This document shows, piece after piece, positions 50,186 to 54,568 of a stretch of 64,000 bases of DNA. The notes beneath the pieces are model-generated. The model did no database searches. It was not told the DNA's origin and saw only the letters and a list, made by a program, of their open reading frames with translations. Every line of letters starts with the position of its first letter. Within the stretch, counting starts at the first letter, position 1. The DNA lies in assembly GCA_048940925.1 (NCBI GenBank), contig JBHLOC010000002.1, positions 160,001-224,000 of the forward strand, read 5' to 3'. Made by a program: the position numbers and the translations under genes. This stretch comes from Promethearchaeota archaeon. GTDB taxonomy: Archaea; Asgardarchaeota; Lokiarchaeia; Sigyniarchaeales; SOKP01.

Positions 50186-51862
50186 ATAAAAAAGAGAACG
50201 ATTTTAATTGTAGTTTTCGCAATAACATCTGTTATTGTTCAGTTATTTGGAATTCCATATTTAGGTATTAAATCTACATCTCATGACCTTGAATTCGAAT
50301 ATGTCTATAATTGGGACTTAACAGGAACAGGAGGATGGTACGACGGATATAAAGAGACTTTTAGAGCAAAAGGACATTACACTATTGATTTTAATGGGAA
50401 TTTTGCGAATGTAACTGCTCGCGTTTCATGGAAATTTTCTGAAAACTATTATGGTTCTTCCCAAAAAAGCGTAGATACTTATGAGTTTTCATATTCGCTA
50501 GATAATGGTGCGTATATATGGGGAACTGACCAAGATGTCCTTAACACAACTAATATGAATGTTTGGTTTCATATTCCTGGAGGGATTAAAGCTCCTCAAT
50601 ATGATATTCTCGATACTTCATATAAAGTAATCAGTGGAGAACATCTTATTTGGGTTGGATATTTAATGCCTTTTAGTGGAAAGAAACTTCATAGTGAGGG
50701 CCAATATTTTCGAGATGATGAGCTTGGGAAATTTGATGCTAAATATAGAGTAGATAATTTCTTTACGAAAAATGGTTATTTAATTGGAGAGATTTATACA
50801 GAAACAGATGATGGTTACGATAGAGACACGGGAGATTGGTCCGAATTTAAATTGAATTCCTATGTCTTCATTACATCTTCTAGTTATCTAAGACCTTTTA
50901 ATTTTGGAATGTACTTTTTAGCATACTGGGGACCTATATTATTTTTTATGATTCTTTTTTACGTAGTATATGAAAACCTCCGCTGGAAATCAAGGATAAT
51001 TCCCAAAGGAGATATAGAAATTGTTGTTGAAAGAAATCTTCCTAACTTTGTGAAATTTGAAATACAATCTGCTTATTCAGAAATGATACCATCCTATTTA
51101 GTTAGAGCAAGATCTCATGATAAGAGAATTATTAGTGCTCATAAAAATGGAGTAGTAGAAGGAATAGGATTTATTGAACCAAATGGGAAAATCGGTACAT
51201 TTTATGGTAACTACATCTGGGATATGATAAACTATACAAAAGTAAAATACGCATTCACTGAAATTGGAAGGAATTTAAAAGGTTTTCGCACAATCGAAAA
51301 ATATAATATCCTTGAAATTAATAATCTCCAGCAAAGAGATTTAAGTTTTGACACTGCTCATATTAAACCTGTTGAGGAGAAACATCTAGATGCCATCATG
51401 AAAATGGTCGCAAATGAAGATAGAGGTAAAAAAAGCAAGAAATATGCAAAATGGGTTTCTAAATCTTATGAGGATGATATCGCAGTTATAGCTACTGCTT
51501 CAAGCACAGAAACATGGGTTCAGTCTATAATGTCGGATTTATATCAGAGTAAATATCCTAAACCAGAATCTATAGCTAATGAAATAATATTGGGTGTAGG
51601 TTTTACTACTCCTGGAGAAGAAACTGGATGGTTATATGGACTTTACGTCCATCCTGCTTTTAGAAATCATGGGCTAGGGAGAACACTTGTATTAGCCCGA
51701 CTTTCAGCGCTCAAGGAAATAGGATGTATACGAGCAATTACAGAAATTGCTGAATGGAATAGTCCTGCTAAAAAGATATATGATGATTATAATGCTCAAA
51801 TAGTAGGTACAATATATCTTTTAGGTAAAAAGATGCCAAAAGTTAAGGTGAGACACTACTGA
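50186..51862 (+). CDS. Receptor-like membrane GNAT acetyltransferase (signal peptide, ectodomain, TM, GNAT); non-AUG start
   Basis: Frame open from 50156 with no ATG/GTG/TTG until 50555. ATA 50186 gives (M)KKRTILIVVFAITSVIVQLFG. TM FLAYWGPILFFMILFYVV; GNAT LYVHPAFRNHGLG..NSPAKKIY. Confidence 0.8.
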   Translation: MKKRTILIVVFAITSVIVQLFGIPYLGIKSTSHDLEFEYVYNWDLTGTGGWYDGYKETFRAKGHYTIDFNGNFANVTARVSWKFSENYYGSSQKSVDTYEFSYSLDNGAYIWGTDQDVLNTTNMNVWFHIPGGIKAPQYDILDTSYKVISGEHLIWVGYLMPFSGKKLHSEGQYFRDDELGKFDAKYRVDNFFTKNGYLIGEIYTETDDGYDRDTGDWSEFKLNSYVFITSSSYLRPFNFGMYFLAYWGPILFFMILFYVVYENLRWKSRIIPKGDIEIVVERNLPNFVKFEIQSAYSEMIPSYLVRARSHDKRIISAHKNGVVEGIGFIEPNGKIGTFYGNYIWDMINYTKVKYAFTEIGRNLKGFRTIEKYNILEINNLQQRDLSFDTAHIKPVEEKHLDAIMKMVANEDRGKKSKKYAKWVSKSYEDDIAVIATASSTETWVQSIMSDLYQSKYPKPESIANEIILGVGFTTPGEETGWLYGLYVHPAFRNHGLGRTLVLARLSALKEIGCIRAITEIAEWNSPAKKIYDDYNAQIVGTIYLLGKKMPKVKVRHY

Positions 51863-53067
51863 ATGAAAATGTAACTTACCATTCACTTTATCATCAAAAA
51901 TTACTAAATTCTGTTAATTTTAATTTATTCAAGATTGAACCTGAGGCGATTGAGATTAATAAGCAATTTAAATTACCGGAGGAATGGTATTCTGCCTATT
52001 TAGGACCAGCTACTGCTGAATTTCATGGATTAACTCATAAATCTCAACCAGCACTTAGAGACGAAAATAGAAATGCAATTATCCCAGAATATTTTATTGA
52101 GATTGGAGGAAAAATTATCTATTTATCAGTGAAAGGGTGTGGAGCTTATGAGGATATGTTTTTTGGAGGAAAATTAAACCAGAGCAAAATAAAAAATGCA
52201 TGTCGAGATTCAAAACATCTAGCTAAAATTGAGACATTATCTACGAGTCTAGGTTTCATAATGGGAGAGTCTTGGATGGGTGAAAGTCCATATGGTGCCC
52301 AAGGTTTTATAAACGGATATGATGAGCTTAAATTTTCTAGAATTGCCGAATTGGATAATATTAACGGAGCTTATATATGCCCCTCAATAGCAGTTATTAA
52401 GCTACCAAAAGAAATTGAAAAAGTGGCTAGAAAATTCTTTTGGTTTAGAACATATAAAGATCATTTTTATCAAGTTCTGCGCCTAGTTCCATCAAATATA
52501 CGTTTGTATTTTGAATCATCTCACAATATTGCTAATCCAAGTCCAGTTTTTCAGTTATTCGAGATTGACACTATAGAAAGAGCAGAAAATTTTGAATTGA
52601 ATTTTATAAAAAGTGGAATCGCACTTTTAACACTTTATACACGATCAGCAATAATAGAAGGAAATGAAATTAAGGGTATTTATTATCAAGATGTATGGTT
52701 AGATAAAGACTGTGTAGTAGCACCGAATGGAATAATTCATTTTGCAGATATTGAAGGATTTATTTGGAAAAAAGTGACTATTGATGAATATAAAGAGATT
52801 CAGAAAAAAGAATGGCAGAAATTAGTATATGAGTTTCTATATGCATTGGTTCAAATCGATTCTTATCGCCATTCATTGGACGAACGTCAAATTTCTTGGG
52901 AACGACAAAGAGAAGAACTAGAAATCCTTATTTATGAAGCTTTAAATAAAGATTTTTTTACTAATGTAGAAAATATTAATGGAAATTTAACTATCATAAT
53001 AGAGGGCAAAGATTTACCCTCCATTGAAATGCCAATACTAGAAAAGGTGATCAAGTTTGATATGTGA
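51859..53067 (+). CDS. Atypical kinase-fold protein resembling SelO/YdiU (CTG start)
   Basis: CTG overlaps the upstream TGA, 7 nt after AGGTGA. Motifs LSVKGCG, VLRLVPSNIRLYFE, QDVWLDKD..FADIEG. Confidence 0.7.
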   Translation: MNENVTYHSLYHQKLLNSVNFNLFKIEPEAIEINKQFKLPEEWYSAYLGPATAEFHGLTHKSQPALRDENRNAIIPEYFIEIGGKIIYLSVKGCGAYEDMFFGGKLNQSKIKNACRDSKHLAKIETLSTSLGFIMGESWMGESPYGAQGFINGYDELKFSRIAELDNINGAYICPSIAVIKLPKEIEKVARKFFWFRTYKDHFYQVLRLVPSNIRLYFESSHNIANPSPVFQLFEIDTIERAENFELNFIKSGIALLTLYTRSAIIEGNEIKGIYYQDVWLDKDCVVAPNGIIHFADIEGFIWKKVTIDEYKEIQKKEWQKLVYEFLYALVQIDSYRHSLDERQISWERQREELEILIYEALNKDFFTNVENINGNLTIIIEGKDLPSIEMPILEKVIKFDM

Positions 53068-54568
53068 GAGAGCTTTAGAGATATTAAGTTCTATAAAAGA
53101 TAAACATAATCTTATGACTTCATTTGAAGAGATTTCTGAATTAAAAGAAAACAATTTGATTTCAGAATTCAAAGCTAATATCCCCAAGACGTCAAGAGAT
53201 TATGACTTAACTAGTCTAAAAAGAAAGTATGTGAAGTTATCTAATGATATAAGACAAGCTTATCAAAATTTAGTAACATTAGAGGGTGATTTTAATCATG
53301 TATCAACGTTGTCCCGCTTTTTTTCTTATCTAAAAATGGGAAGAGGAGCAACACTAAAAAAAGATATATCTGATTTACATCAATTCATCGAAAATAAAGA
53401 AGCTGATCTGAAAAAATTGAAAAATGAACTGTTAAAACTTAATAGAGAAATTGAATCTCATGAAAGAGCAGTTAAGGTAAATGGTATTAGAGTTTTTCTT
53501 ACCCCCATAGGTGAGACAATTATTGATGAAATAAAAGCTCGAAGGAGATTCTATACTCGAGAATTAAAAGAGCTAATTATTGTATTAAAGAATTTAGATG
53601 ATACATTCACCATGCTTATCGACAATATTGGTACTATTATGAGAACAAATAATTTCTCACCCATATGGGCGTTATATCTTCTTAATACAAATATGCTAAA
53701 TCTATCTAAAATTCTGAATATAATTACGCTACGTGAACGTAATTATAATAACGCACAAAAAAGAATGATGAATTTATCATTTTTTCTCATGAATCATCCA
53801 GAAATAATGATTCCAAGGAATAATCGTGAAGCAAAGATTACTGAGAATGAATTTAAATATACGTATCCCGAAAACGAATATAAAAGAATGTTTCATGAAA
53901 TCCTTAATAATGCAAATATATCAACTTATAAAATAAGAACAGCTATCTCGTTATTGGGTAAATTTTTCACAATATGGGGTTCAAAAAATGAGGTAAATAG
54001 AAATATTATTAAGCAATATTATGAAAATCTTAGAATCTTCATAGATTTTCAAAGAGATTTACCAATGATCGGAAAGAAGACAATTCTTTATCAGCATTTA
54101 AAGCAAAATATTGATGAGGAAATGATATTTGTCTTGTTAATTTTAGCTTTTTCCACTAAATTGGATTCTTATAATTATTTCTACGAAATTATTGAAGATA
54201 TACCTGAAGGTACGAAATTTTTTTCAGCAATCTCCTCATTATTCCCATGGGACCCTGAAGAGACATGGAGAGTATTATTGCGCGCACAATCAAACATACT
54301 AAAAGCTCAAAGTGCAAAATTTATTCCAGAATTAATGGAATATGCTATTCTAATGTGTTTAAATCCCAATGTATTATTAATAGAAAATAATATCTCACAA
54401 GAGCAACTGGCTAAATGGAAATTTTTAATAAATCCTGTTATACATCTTAGCATATACTCTTTCTTCGAACAAGATTTAGAAACTTACATAAGGAGAAGAC
54501 CTTTAGCATATATTATAGCACCAATGTATTATCATCATTCTATGCTTCATTACCACTCTATAGGTTAA
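53057..54568 (+). CDS. Coiled-coil/helical hypothetical protein with His-rich C-terminus
   Basis: TTG 6 nt after AGGTGA, overlapping the previous gene; heptad-rich N-terminus; ends YYHHSMLHYHSIG. Confidence 0.75.
   Translation: MICERALEILSSIKDKHNLMTSFEEISELKENNLISEFKANIPKTSRDYDLTSLKRKYVKLSNDIRQAYQNLVTLEGDFNHVSTLSRFFSYLKMGRGATLKKDISDLHQFIENKEADLKKLKNELLKLNREIESHERAVKVNGIRVFLTPIGETIIDEIKARRRFYTRELKELIIVLKNLDDTFTMLIDNIGTIMRTNNFSPIWALYLLNTNMLNLSKILNIITLRERNYNNAQKRMMNLSFFLMNHPEIMIPRNNREAKITENEFKYTYPENEYKRMFHEILNNANISTYKIRTAISLLGKFFTIWGSKNEVNRNIIKQYYENLRIFIDFQRDLPMIGKKTILYQHLKQNIDEEMIFVLLILAFSTKLDSYNYFYEIIEDIPEGTKFFSAISSLFPWDPEETWRVLLRAQSNILKAQSAKFIPELMEYAILMCLNPNVLLIENNISQEQLAKWKFLINPVIHLSIYSFFEQDLETYIRRRPLAYIIAPMYYHHSMLHYHSIG

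What the first reader, a model, noticed from the sequence alone, without database searches (positions are those of the whole stretch)
50186..54568. Coupled operon: receptor-like membrane acetyltransferase, SelO-like kinase-fold enzyme and coiled-coil protein (candidate transmembrane PTM signalling system)
Seen: three genes overlap (CTGA at 51859-51862; TTG 53057 inside the previous gene). Gene 1 is 558 aa once its non-AUG N-terminus is restored. It has a signal/TM, a roughly 200-aa Tyr/Gly/Asp-rich region with NxT sequons, a second TM and a C-terminal GNAT. Gene 2 carries kinase-fold motifs. Gene 3 is a coiled-coil/helical protein with a His-rich tail. Known: single-pass receptors usually signal through kinase, cyclase or phosphatase domains. 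Inference: an extracellular ligand controls acetylation, and a second writer (phosphoryl or AMP transfer) acts on gene 3 or a shared target. Standard gene calling truncates genes 1 and 2 and hides this architecture.
Basis: partly seen in the sequence, partly recalled or inferred. Interest (0 to 1): 0.82.

Follow-up and report, generated by a model that had tools for sequence, protein, structure and literature searches.

The report
Asgard membrane acetyltransferase–SelO-like enzyme operon
A tightly packed three-gene operon of a Loki-type Asgard archaeon encodes a receptor-shaped membrane acetyltransferase, a new enzyme shaped like the AMP-attaching enzyme SelO, and a helical protein with an invariant His-x-His...Gly end; the set is real and conserved, but its function is untested.

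Summary

- **Operon.** Three same-strand genes (50186-51862, 51859-53067, 53057-54568) overlap at their junctions.
- **Start codons.** Genes 1 and 2 start at ATA and CTG. Relatives keep these codons. The start-free leading parts are under purifying selection (dN/dS 0.10-0.23). Contigs from an independent run match with no differences.
- **Gene 1.** It has two membrane helices, a roughly 215-aa outside domain and a cytoplasmic GNAT with an intact acetyl-CoA motif.
- **Gene 2.** It matches no Pfam or NCBIfam family. Its confident model (pLDDT 93) matches SelO best (Z 14.8), ahead of NIS synthetases (about 11) and protein kinases (9.2 or less). Its invariant residues follow SelO's order and spacing. 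It does not meet SelO family membership by sequence.
- **Gene 3.** It is a coiled-coil plus helical protein of no recognised fold. All 37 homologues end H-x-H-x(2-4)-Gly.
- **Distribution.** The trio is syntenic in divergent Loki-type genomes and one Thermoplasmatota MAG. Genes 2 and 3 occur in the same 7 of 121 Asgard genomes, always adjacent. A same-genus genome lacks the cassette at the same site.

My best reading is a membrane-linked protein-modification module combining acetylation with nucleotidyl transfer. The mechanism is inferred, not shown. This scan noted the same module earlier on other DNA (e1-3084258).

The parts
50110..50150 (+). Conserved AT-rich upstream block, candidate archaeal promoter/TATA region of the operon
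   Evidence: The block is nearly identical upstream of gene 1 in the window, L016, L017, L018 and L019, although synonymous sites in the genes differ by 30-46%. Promoter function is inferred.
50168..50172 (+). Shine-Dalgarno-like AGGAG ahead of gene 1
   Evidence: AGGAG lies 10 nt before ATT 50183 and 13 nt before ATA 50186. It is present in the window, L016, L017 and L018.
50186..51862 (+). Gene 1: 558-aa two-TM membrane GNAT acetyltransferase starting at ATA
   Evidence: Homologues of 557-560 aa begin with M at this codon. ATA is conserved in 4 assemblies and is ATG in L019. dN/dS of the first 123 codons is 0.13-0.21. Independent contigs are identical.
50198..50254 (+). TM helix 1 (aa 5-23), preceded by K-K-R
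   Evidence: Kyte-Doolittle 19-aa window score 2.54. The same segment is found in five homologues.
50255..50902 (+). Extracytoplasmic domain (aa 24-239), no known family
   Evidence: It lies between two TM helices that have positive residues on the cytoplasmic sides. Invariant aromatic and Gly residues include G50, Y52, Y55, W82, W127 and F128. Sequons lie at N75 and N120. No Pfam hit. Atlas feature search was uninformative.
50903..50968 (+). TM helix 2 (aa 240-261), followed by R-W-K-S-R
   Evidence: Hydropathy 1.79-1.94 here and 1.87-2.24 in homologues.
50969..51340 (+). Cytoplasmic juxtamembrane domain (aa 262 to about 385), no known family
   Evidence: Conserved in the family. No Pfam hit in 8 homologues at E up to 5.
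51341..51859 (+). GNAT acetyltransferase domain (aa about 386-558) with R493-x-x-G496-x-G498 acetyl-CoA motif
   Evidence: PF00583 E 1.3e-9, 38.8 bits. A profile search of PDB hits SSAT2, RimI, Naa30 and archaeal Nat at E 4e-6 to 3e-3 over aa 393-550. R493, G496 and G498 are invariant.
51847..51852 (+). Shine-Dalgarno-like GGTGAG inside the end of gene 1, 6 nt before gene 2's CTG
   Evidence: Conserved in all five loci.
51859..53067 (+). Gene 2: 402-aa SelO-like protein-kinase-fold enzyme starting at CTG in a CTGA stop/start overlap
   Evidence: Homologues of about 400 aa cover 99% of it. CTG is present in 5 loci. dN/dS of the first 90 codons is 0.10-0.23. The AF2 model has pLDDT 93.3. SelO 6eac is the best match at Z 14.8.
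53046..53051 (+). Shine-Dalgarno-like GGTGAT, 5 nt before gene 3's TTG
53057..54568 (+). Gene 3: 503-aa soluble coiled-coil plus all-helical protein starting at TTG
   Evidence: Homologues of 487-506 aa cover 100% of it. The AF2 model has pLDDT 83. No TM helix.
53186..53467 (+). Antiparallel coiled-coil hairpin of gene 3 (aa 44-137)
   Evidence: Helices 44-80 and 95-137. This is the only part matched in PDB, at Z about 10, to generic coiled coils.
54473..54565 (+). Flexible C-terminal tail of gene 3 (aa 473-503) ending H498-Y-H500-S-I-G503
   Evidence: pLDDT is below 50. H498, H500 and the terminal G503 are invariant, and all 37 homologues end at that Gly.
54589..54595 (+). Run of seven T, 21 nt after the gene 3 stop; likely archaeal terminator
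   Evidence: Function is inferred from the known oligo-T termination of archaeal RNA polymerase.

Best explanation
This is one transcription unit of three translationally coupled genes. It is an accessory module of Loki-type Asgard archaea.

**Gene 1** sits in the membrane with N and C termini inside. It exposes a conserved domain of about 215 aa outside the cell. Inside, it carries an unknown juxtamembrane domain followed by a GNAT acetyltransferase that can bind acetyl-CoA.

**Gene 2** is a new family with the protein-kinase fold, and its nearest solved relative is SelO. Like SelO, it keeps these residues:
- the beta-3 lysine in a K-G-x-G motif (K92);
- two arginines seven residues apart in an R-x-x-P-S-x-x-R motif (R208, R215);
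- an acidic or amide metal ligand at the end of the catalytic loop (D284);
- a DFG-position aspartate (D297).

By spacing, it has Val at the position where kinases have the HRD aspartate.

I therefore infer that gene 2 binds a nucleotide in the flipped, SelO-like way. It would then transfer AMP or UMP, not phosphate, to a protein side chain.

**Gene 3** is its most likely partner or substrate. It is always adjacent, always co-occurs, and has a disordered tail ending in an invariant H-x-H...Gly-COOH. The outside domain of gene 1 would couple an external cue to acetylation of one of these proteins or of a shared target.

**Shown:** gene models, topology, folds, conservation, synteny and start codons. 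**Inferred:** the nucleotidyl-transfer chemistry, the substrate and any signalling role. The confidence given is for the whole reading, mechanism included. The anatomy alone I hold at about 0.9.
For: **Gene structure and starts**
- Searches give the frames and overlaps.
- Homologue lengths and N-termini fit the long gene models.
- ATA and CTG are conserved in 4 and 5 independent assemblies.
- dN/dS in the start-free leading parts is 0.10-0.23.
- Run X5 contigs, at depth about 30, show no differences or indels over 50100-50578 and 51745-52167.

**Topology and GNAT**
- Two TM helices with positive-inside flanks.
- The GNAT hit is above the Pfam cut-off and R493/G496/G498 are invariant.

**Gene 2 fold**
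- pLDDT 93.3, pTM 0.91.
- Foldseek's top hits are YdiU/SelO, probability 0.97-0.99.
- Exhaustive VIA-align: SelO 6eac at Z 14.8, 259 aa, rmsd 4.2. NIS synthetases follow at 10.7-11.7 and kinases at 9.2 or less.

**Gene 2 residues**
- Invariant K92, R208, P211, S212, R215, D282, K283, D284 and D297.
- SelO invariants K107, R170, R177, N247 and D256 (E. coli numbering) correspond to P. syringae K113, R176, R183, N253 and D262. Those bind the buried gamma-phosphate and Mg (PMC8097203).
- Spacings match. Arg to Arg is 7 in both. Second Arg to metal ligand is 69 in gene 2 and 70 in SelO.
- Distant relatives keep K-G-x-G, R-L-x-P-S/T-x-x-R, [KRS]-[DN]-x-V and D-L-E.

**Linkage**
- The trio is syntenic in L001, L002/3, L004 and L016-L019 while the flanks differ.
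- Genes 2 and 3 are in the same 7 of 121 Asgard genomes, always adjacent.

**Binding of gene 2 and gene 3**
- Complex prediction gave weak support: score 0.59, best of 3 controls 0.00.
- The mark was reached by 58 of 80 solved complexes and 2 of 110 mismatched pairs.
- A score of 0.60 or under was seen in only 7 of those 80, and in both mismatches that passed.
- The runs agree in at least 32% of contacts, and partner pLDDT is at least 72.

**Tail**
- All 37 gene 3 homologues end H-x-H-x(2-4)-G.
Against: - No sequence method links gene 2 to SelO. Pfam PF02696 finds nothing in gene 2, in 35 family members, or in the genome.
- Profile-profile comparison with a 10-sequence SelO alignment is not significant: probability under 1%, E 0.22.
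- The residue mapping was made by eye from motif order and spacing. It was not taken from a superposition.
- NIS synthetases, which adenylate small carboxylates, are the next best fold match.
- D282 and K283 in the catalytic loop have no SelO counterpart.
- No assay, no expression data and no identified substrate exist.
- The middle residue of the H-x-H tail motif is not conserved (Y, H, V or T). If a side chain is the target, it would be a His, not a Tyr.
- The complex prediction is only a weak pass.
- The ectodomain has no recognised ligand-binding fold.
Confidence: 0.5

Rival explanations
1. Gene 2 is a conventional phosphotransferase: a protein or small-molecule kinase. The trio would then be an atypical phospho-signalling unit in which the membrane protein recruits a kinase and its helical substrate or scaffold.
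For: - The fold is that of protein kinases. About 200 residues align to many kinases at Z 8-9.
- The beta-3 Lys, a catalytic-loop D-K-D and a DFG-position Asp are invariant.
- D278 or D282 could act as the catalytic base.
Against: - SelO scores well above every kinase, 14.8 against 9.2 or less.
- The twin-Arg R-x-x-P-S-x-x-R motif is a SelO feature that holds the buried gamma-phosphate. It is invariant here.
- By spacing, the HRD-Asp position holds Val279.
- D278 is D or N, and D282/K283 are lost in distant relatives.
- No Pkinase, APH or RIO Pfam hit.
Confidence: 0.15
2. The module makes or modifies a small molecule or an envelope component. Gene 2 would adenylate a carboxylate and ligate it to an amine, as NIS synthetases do. 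The GNAT would acylate the amine or the product at the membrane, and gene 3 would be a scaffold.
For: - NIS synthetases AcsD, SbnC, AsbB and IucA are the second-best fold matches, Z 10.7-11.7 over 270-285 aa.
- Aerobactin-type NIS pathways pair such enzymes with a GNAT (own knowledge).
- The closest solved GNATs include polyamine acetyltransferases.
- The membrane location suits export or envelope chemistry.
Against: - No IucA/IucC Pfam hit.
- No other biosynthetic, transporter or monooxygenase genes are conserved next to the trio.
- SelO is the better match.
- A 500-aa conserved helical protein with an invariant tail is not explained by this reading.
Confidence: 0.15
3. The trio is a conflict or defence-type cassette. 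A membrane sensor would be coupled to a nucleotidyl-transferase effector that shuts down a cellular target on attack, with gene 3 as regulator or immunity partner.
For: - The distribution is patchy: 7 of 121 Asgard genomes, all in one order.
- It is absent from two 99%-complete same-genus genomes. In G008 the two flanking genes are adjacent with only 315 bp between them.
- It is also present in a Thermoplasmatota MAG.
- All three genes use weak start codons, which would keep expression low.
Against: - No PADLOC hit for any of the three.
- No mobile-element genes flank it.
- In five genomes of the family, the trio sits at the same chromosomal site next to the FwdA-like gene (the window). That fits vertical descent with loss better than mobility.
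- No toxin-like feature was found.
Confidence: 0.1
4. Genes 1 and 2 are decaying pseudogenes, or the assembly is wrong. Their start codons would be lost (ATG to ATA, TTG/ATG to CTG) or a homopolymer base miscalled, so only the short annotated forms, or nothing, would be made.
For: - Neither gene has a canonical start at its homologous position.
- An out-of-frame ATG followed by an A-run lies just upstream of each (50160 and 51863). This first suggested a one-base indel.
Against: - The same ATA and CTG occur in 4 and 5 independent assemblies.
- Independent contigs show no indel or difference.
- The leading parts evolve at dN/dS 0.10-0.23.
- The leading parts encode TM1 plus the ectodomain, and the N-lobe of a pLDDT-93 model.
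- The homologues' first Met aligns to the ATA and CTG codons themselves, not to the out-of-frame ATGs.
Confidence: 0.02

Closest known systems
SelO / YdiU protein AMPylase-UMPylase (Pfam PF02696; P. syringae SelO, PDB 6eac)
   Same: - It is the best solved structural match to gene 2: Z 14.8, 259 aa.
- The motifs come in the same order: D/E-x-R, K-G-x-G, twin Arg seven apart in R-x-x-P-S-x-x-R, a metal ligand at the end of the catalytic loop, and a DFG-position Asp.
- Val replaces the HRD Asp, judged by spacing.
   Different: - No detectable sequence homology.
- Gene 2 is about 80 aa shorter. SelO's C-terminal regulatory part, with the Cys/Sec, was not seen in it by eye.
- Gene 2 carries an insertion of about 45 aa after K-G-C-G.
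- The catalytic loop is W-L-D-K-D, not M-N-T-D-N.
- Gene 2 is encoded in an operon with a membrane GNAT and a helical protein.
- No canonical SelO was found in 121 Asgard genomes.
Sensor-domain-fused protein acetyltransferases, such as the cAMP-regulated mycobacterial GNAT MtPat/Rv0998
   Same: A GNAT catalytic domain is placed under a separate input domain in one polypeptide. This suggests signal-controlled acetylation.
   Different: - The input here is an extracytoplasmic domain across two membrane helices, not a cytoplasmic cyclic-nucleotide domain. No cNMP-binding Pfam hit was found.
- The GNAT is nearest to the RimI, Naa30 and SSAT types.
- No regulated acetylation has been shown.
Bacterial two-TM sensor histidine kinases and chemoreceptors (topology only)
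   Same: N-in, TM1, periplasmic-type domain of about 200 aa, TM2, cytoplasmic output domain.
   Different: The output is a GNAT acetyltransferase. No HAMP, HisKA, HATPase or MCP domain was detected.
NIS siderophore synthetases (IucA/IucC family: AcsD, SbnC, AsbB, IucA)
   Same: They are the second-best fold match to gene 2, Z 10.7-11.7. They use ATP to adenylate their substrate.
   Different: They score lower than SelO and are much larger (550-600 aa), with extra N-terminal domains. No Pfam hit was found and there is no siderophore gene context.

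Membership tests
GNAT acetyltransferase superfamily (PF00583) | Match to the Pfam model above its gathering score | tested here: met
   38.8 bits against a cut-off of 20.7, aa 471-532. All full-length homologues carry PF00583 or PF13508.
GNAT acetyltransferase superfamily (PF00583) | Acetyl-CoA pyrophosphate-binding motif Q/R-x-x-G-x-G/A | tested here: met
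   R493-N-H-G496-L-G498, with R493, G496 and G498 invariant in 28 sequences.
GNAT acetyltransferase superfamily (PF00583) | Acetyl transfer to a defined substrate | not testable with these tools
   Needs an enzyme assay. The nearest solved relatives span protein N-terminal and polyamine acetyltransferases.
SelO / YdiU (PF02696) | Sequence match to the family model | tested here: not met
   No hit at E up to 1 for gene 2 or up to 10 for 35 family members. No match in the window's genome. hhalign against a SelO alignment gives E 0.22 and probability under 1%.
SelO / YdiU (PF02696) | SelO-type protein-kinase-like fold | tested here: met
   6eac_A at Z 14.8, rmsd 4.2, 259 aa, ranked first of 48,161 chains. 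Foldseek probability 0.97-0.99 for YdiU/SelO.
SelO / YdiU (PF02696) | Residues that hold a flipped ATP: beta-3 Lys, two Arg on the gamma-phosphate, Asn and DFG-Asp on Mg (K113, R176, R183, N253, D262; PMC8097203) | tested here: inconclusive
   Candidates K92, R208, R215, D284 and D297 are invariant, in the same order and with near-identical spacing. The non-significant hhalign local alignment does place K92 on K107. No structural superposition at residue level was available.
SelO / YdiU (PF02696) | AMP or UMP transfer to protein Ser/Thr/Tyr/His | not testable with these tools
   Needs alpha- versus gamma-32P labelling and mass spectrometry.
Eukaryotic-type protein kinases (PF00069) | Pfam match, glycine-rich loop and HRD catalytic Asp | tested here: not met
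   No Pkinase hit. By spacing from the metal ligand, the HRD-Asp position holds Val279. Fold similarity is only Z 9.2 or less.
NIS synthetases (IucA/IucC) | Pfam match and full multi-domain architecture | tested here: not met
   No Pfam hit. Gene 2 has 402 aa against 550-600 aa. Fold similarity is Z 10.7-11.7 to the C-terminal part only.
Known anti-phage defence systems (PADLOC-DB 2.0) | Match of any component to a defence-system model | tested here: not met
   No hit for any of the three proteins at E up to 1.
Ubiquitin-like / sulfur-carrier proteins with an activated C-terminal Gly | Small beta-grasp fold ending in Gly-Gly | tested here: not met
   Gene 3 has 503 aa and is all helical. It ends x-[IVTFY]-G, not G-G. 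Only the invariant terminal Gly is shared.

The most novel reading that the evidence does not exclude
Gene 2 is the founding member of an archaeal SelO-like nucleotidyl transferase family. Its dedicated substrate would be the invariant, flexible H-x-H...Gly-COOH tail of gene 3. The modification would be either NMP on a His, or adenylation of the terminal carboxylate for ligation, as NIS synthetases do with small acids. The reaction would be gated by a transmembrane acetyltransferase that reads an outside cue. That would be a new kind of receptor-coupled, two-modification switch in the closest archaeal relatives of eukaryotes.
Probability: 0.15. Interest if true: 0.85.

Novelty: new variant of a known kind. 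Interest (0 to 1): 0.6.

Why it matters
- **Signal output.** A receptor-shaped protein whose output is an acetyltransferase would add a new way of carrying signals across a prokaryotic membrane.
- **SelO-type chemistry in Asgard archaea.** Canonical SelO was not found in 121 sampled Asgard genomes. A SelO-like enzyme there would extend AMPylation-type chemistry to a new family and a new partner set.
- **A testable substrate.** The invariant C-terminal tail of gene 3 gives a concrete substrate hypothesis that can be tested at the bench.
- **Annotation.** Two of the three genes start at ATA and CTG and are cut short by gene finders. The receptor topology and the kinase N-lobe are therefore invisible in public annotation. 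This is a practical warning for Asgard genome annotation.

Tried and rejected
1. **Homopolymer frameshift at the starts.** Out-of-frame ATGs at 50160 and 51863 are each followed by an A-run. I rejected this reading. The homologues' first Met aligns to the ATA and CTG codons, the codons recur in other assemblies, and independent contigs show no indel.
2. **Family libraries.** Pfam, NCBIfam and PADLOC gave nothing for genes 2 and 3. Pfam gave nothing for gene 1's ectodomain or juxtamembrane domain.
3. **Sequence searches of PDB with gene 2.** Neither the single sequence nor the profile gave a hit.
4. **hhalign of the gene 2 family against SelO.** E. coli SelO alone and a 10-sequence SelO alignment were both not significant.
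5. **Bridging to SelO through distant relatives.** 139 cluster representatives were found in 1.84 billion proteins. Ten distant full-length ones have no Pfam family. Their gene contexts lack the GNAT.
6. **Gene 3 fold.**
   - VIA-align matched only generic coiled coils at aa 37-143, at Z about 10. That is below the roughly 13 at which helical matches mean something.
   - Foldseek gave no hit at E 0.001 or better.
   - The Atlas shape search gave TM 0.51 to an unnamed archaeal cluster.
7. **Atlas feature searches.** They were uninformative for gene 3 and for the ectodomain. For the ectodomain the best score was 0.81, which is chance level.
8. **Expression.** No RNA holder was listed among the public runs.
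9. **Link to the neighbouring acyl-CoA synthetase.** It could be a GNAT substrate, but the adjacency is not conserved outside close relatives.
10. **The two other long start-free ORFs I thought lay in this window.** The minus-strand coordinates from my script were in reverse-complement numbering, so this lead was dropped.

Full report
**What is in the sequence**

The window has about 30% G+C. The sources name its nearest protein relatives Promethearchaeota or Lokiarchaeota archaeon. Its genome is a 4.8-Mb assembly of 90 contigs.

Three open frames on the + strand run from 50156 to 54568.
- Gene 1's frame has no ATG, GTG or TTG before 50555. Gene 2's frame has none before 52129.
- Gene 1 ends TAC TGA, and the CTG of that CTGA (51859) opens gene 2.
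- Gene 3 starts at TTG 53057, 11 nt before gene 2's TGA at 53065-53067.
- Each start is preceded by a Shine-Dalgarno-like motif: AGGAG at 50168-50172, GGTGAG at 51847-51852 and GGTGAT at 53046-53051.
- A run of seven T follows the last stop.
- None of the three genes uses ATG.

**Are the long gene models real?**

Yes.
- Gene 1 homologues are 557-560 aa and start M-[KR]-K-R-T-I-L exactly on the window's ATA codon at 50186.
- Gene 2 homologues are about 400 aa and start M-N-E-S-L-T-Y on the window's CTG.
- I first suspected a one-base homopolymer error, because an out-of-frame ATG and an A-run precede both genes. That idea fails on three counts.
  - Three other assemblies (L016, L017, L018) have the same ATA. 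A more distant one (L019) has ATG there. All five have CTG at gene 2.
  - Among the genomes that share the odd codons, the start-free leading parts evolve at dN/dS 0.10-0.23.
  - Contigs of an independent sediment run cover 50100-50578 and 51745-52167 at depth about 30, without a single difference or indel.
- Many public calls of these genes are truncated to 435, 483, 310 or 312 aa for this reason.
- Genome-wide, 33 of 2461 long open frames have 60 or more start-free leading codons. The habit is therefore not confined to this operon. Earlier notes of this scan report the same in other Asgard genomes.

**Gene 1**

Hydropathy gives two helices, aa 5-23 and aa 240-261. K-K-R lies before the first and R-W-K-S-R after the second. 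Both termini are therefore inside, and aa 24-239 lie outside.

The outside domain is rich in Tyr, Gly, Asp and Ser. It has invariant aromatic and Gly positions and two partly conserved sequons. No family or feature match was found for it.

The cytoplasmic part has two pieces:
- an unassigned domain of about 125 aa;
- a GNAT domain with an invariant R-x-x-G-x-G motif. Its nearest solved relatives are SSAT2, RimI, Naa30 and archaeal Nat.

**Gene 2**

No Pfam or NCBIfam family matches it. No PDB sequence matches it either.

AlphaFold2 with 35 homologues gives pLDDT 93.3 and pTM 0.91.

| Search | Result |
|---|---|
| Foldseek | YdiU/SelO ranked first, probability 0.97-0.99 |
| VIA-align, 48,161 chains | P. 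syringae SelO first: Z 14.8, 259 aa, rmsd 4.2 |
| VIA-align, next group | NIS synthetases, Z 10.7-11.7 |
| VIA-align, then | protein kinases, Z 9.2 or less |

The family's invariant residues are N70, R71, K92, G93, G95, Q205, R208, P211, S212, R215, W280, D282, K283, D284 and D297.

A SelO alignment built here has invariant K107, E130, R170, R177, N244, D246, N247 and D256 in E. coli numbering. These correspond to P. syringae K113, E136, R176, R183, N253 and D262. In that enzyme they hold the buried gamma-phosphate of a flipped ATP and the Mg ion (PMC8097203).

| Feature | Gene 2 | SelO (E. coli numbering) |
|---|---|---|
| Beta-3 lysine motif | K-G-C-G (K92) | K-G-A-G (K107) |
| Twin-arginine motif | R-L-V-P-S-N-I-R (R208, R215) | R-V-A-P-S-H-L-R (R170, R177) |
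| Arg to Arg spacing | 7 | 7 |
| Second Arg to metal ligand | 69 | 70 |
| Residue five before the metal ligand (HRD-Asp position in kinases) | Val | Val |

Distant relatives of gene 2 keep just these motifs.

This mapping is by eye. Profile-profile comparison is not significant, although its one local alignment does put K92 on K107. Gene 2 is therefore SelO-like in fold and probably in nucleotide handling. It is not a member of the SelO family by sequence.

No canonical SelO was found in 121 sampled Asgard genomes.

**Gene 3**

The model (pLDDT 83) has these parts:
- a short N-terminal element;
- an antiparallel coiled-coil hairpin, aa 44-137;
- an all-helical domain to about aa 470;
- a disordered tail.

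Only the hairpin finds solved matches, and they are generic. An unnamed archaeal cluster in the Atlas resembles the whole protein at TM 0.51.

All 37 aligned homologues end H-x-H-x(2-4)-Gly, with the Gly as the last residue. This includes those of 15-26% identity from L001, L002 and L004.

**Linkage and distribution**

The order GNAT, gene 2, gene 3 recurs with overlapping or near-touching genes in:
- a complete Loki-type genome at 46% identity (L001);
- two MAGs at 32% identity (L002/3);
- a Thermoplasmatota MAG (L004);
- four close relatives (L016-L019).

The flanks differ between these loci.

Among 121 Asgard species genomes, genes 2 and 3 occur in the same seven, always adjacent. All seven are in the window's order.

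Two 99%-complete same-genus genomes lack the trio. In G008 the acyl-CoA synthetase (86% identical) and the FwdA-like gene that flank the trio here are adjacent, 315 bp apart.

The gene 2 family is small: 139 cluster representatives in 1.84 billion proteins.

**How it most likely works**

*Shown:* one operon; a two-TM protein with an outside domain and an inside GNAT; a SelO-like enzyme with a plausibly intact active site; a strictly co-inherited helical protein with an invariant terminal motif.

*Inferred:*
- Gene 2 transfers AMP or UMP rather than phosphate.
- Gene 3, most likely its tail, is the partner or substrate.
- Gene 1 links an outside cue to acetylation.

A complex prediction of gene 2 with gene 3 gave weak support only:
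- The score was 0.59 and the best of 3 controls was 0.00.
- The mark was reached by 58 of 80 solved complexes and 2 of 110 mismatched pairs.
- A score of 0.60 or under was seen in only 7 of those 80, and in both mismatches that passed.
- The runs agree in at least 32% of contacts, and partner pLDDT is at least 72.

*Rivals:*
- a true kinase;
- an NIS-like small-molecule ligase with a GNAT;
- a conflict cassette, suggested by the patchy distribution but with no PADLOC hit and a stable chromosomal site;
- pseudogenes, which I reject.

**Comparison with what is known, and novelty**

Each enzyme belongs to a known superfamily. The closest analogues are SelO/YdiU for gene 2, and sensor-fused GNATs or two-TM sensor kinases for gene 1.

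I found no paper describing this family or trio. This scan had already followed up the same module on another genome and reached a matching description (e1-3084258).

I rate it a new variant of known kinds, of moderate-to-good interest. Its function remains open.

Noticed in passing
window 50186, 51859, 53057: None of the three genes uses ATG. Their starts are ATA, CTG and TTG, each behind a Shine-Dalgarno-like motif. A synonymous TAT/TAC choice in gene 1's last Tyr codon would decide whether gene 2 starts at TTG or CTG; this is inferred, as no TAT-carrying locus was read.
   Followed up: yes
whole genome G000 (for example C41:210156-211862 and C41:211847-213067, + strand): 33 of 2461 stop-to-stop frames of 250 or more codons have 60 or more leading codons without ATG, GTG or TTG. 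These are candidates for further non-canonical starts, split genes or selenoproteins. Only the two in this operon were examined.
   Followed up: partly
window 48428-49978: The upstream neighbour is a 516-aa AMP-forming acyl-CoA synthetase with the C-terminal P-K-T-P-T-G-K motif. The Lys of that motif is the classic target of GNAT protein acetyltransferases. The adjacency holds only in close relatives.
   Followed up: partly
window 54666-58042, minus strand: A formylmethanofuran-dehydrogenase-like cluster (FwdA-like amidohydrolase, FwdD-like, FwdB-like) lies convergent to the operon. The FwdA-like gene is next to the trio in several relatives.
   Followed up: no
L004:1812-1955: In the Thermoplasmatota MAG, the public call of the gene 1 homologue starts after its first membrane helix. 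The frame is open 48 codons further upstream and encodes a hydrophobic segment.
   Followed up: no
homologue tables: Proteins 60-80% identical to the window's carry NCBI names from five different Asgard groups (Heimdall-, Thor-, Odin-, Hermod-, Hodarchaeota). Yet a sample of 121 species genomes finds the module only in the window's own order. Those MAG names look unreliable.
   Followed up: no
L001:9343-11106: The gene 3 homologue of the complete Loki-type genome carries a low-complexity Arg/Gly/Ser/His-rich insertion of about 80 aa just before the conserved H-x-H...Gly end.
   Followed up: no
L011:201-1637: The SelO homologue on a Riemerella anatipestifer plasmid record has one in-frame stop and is not annotated. 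It may be a pseudogene.
   Followed up: no
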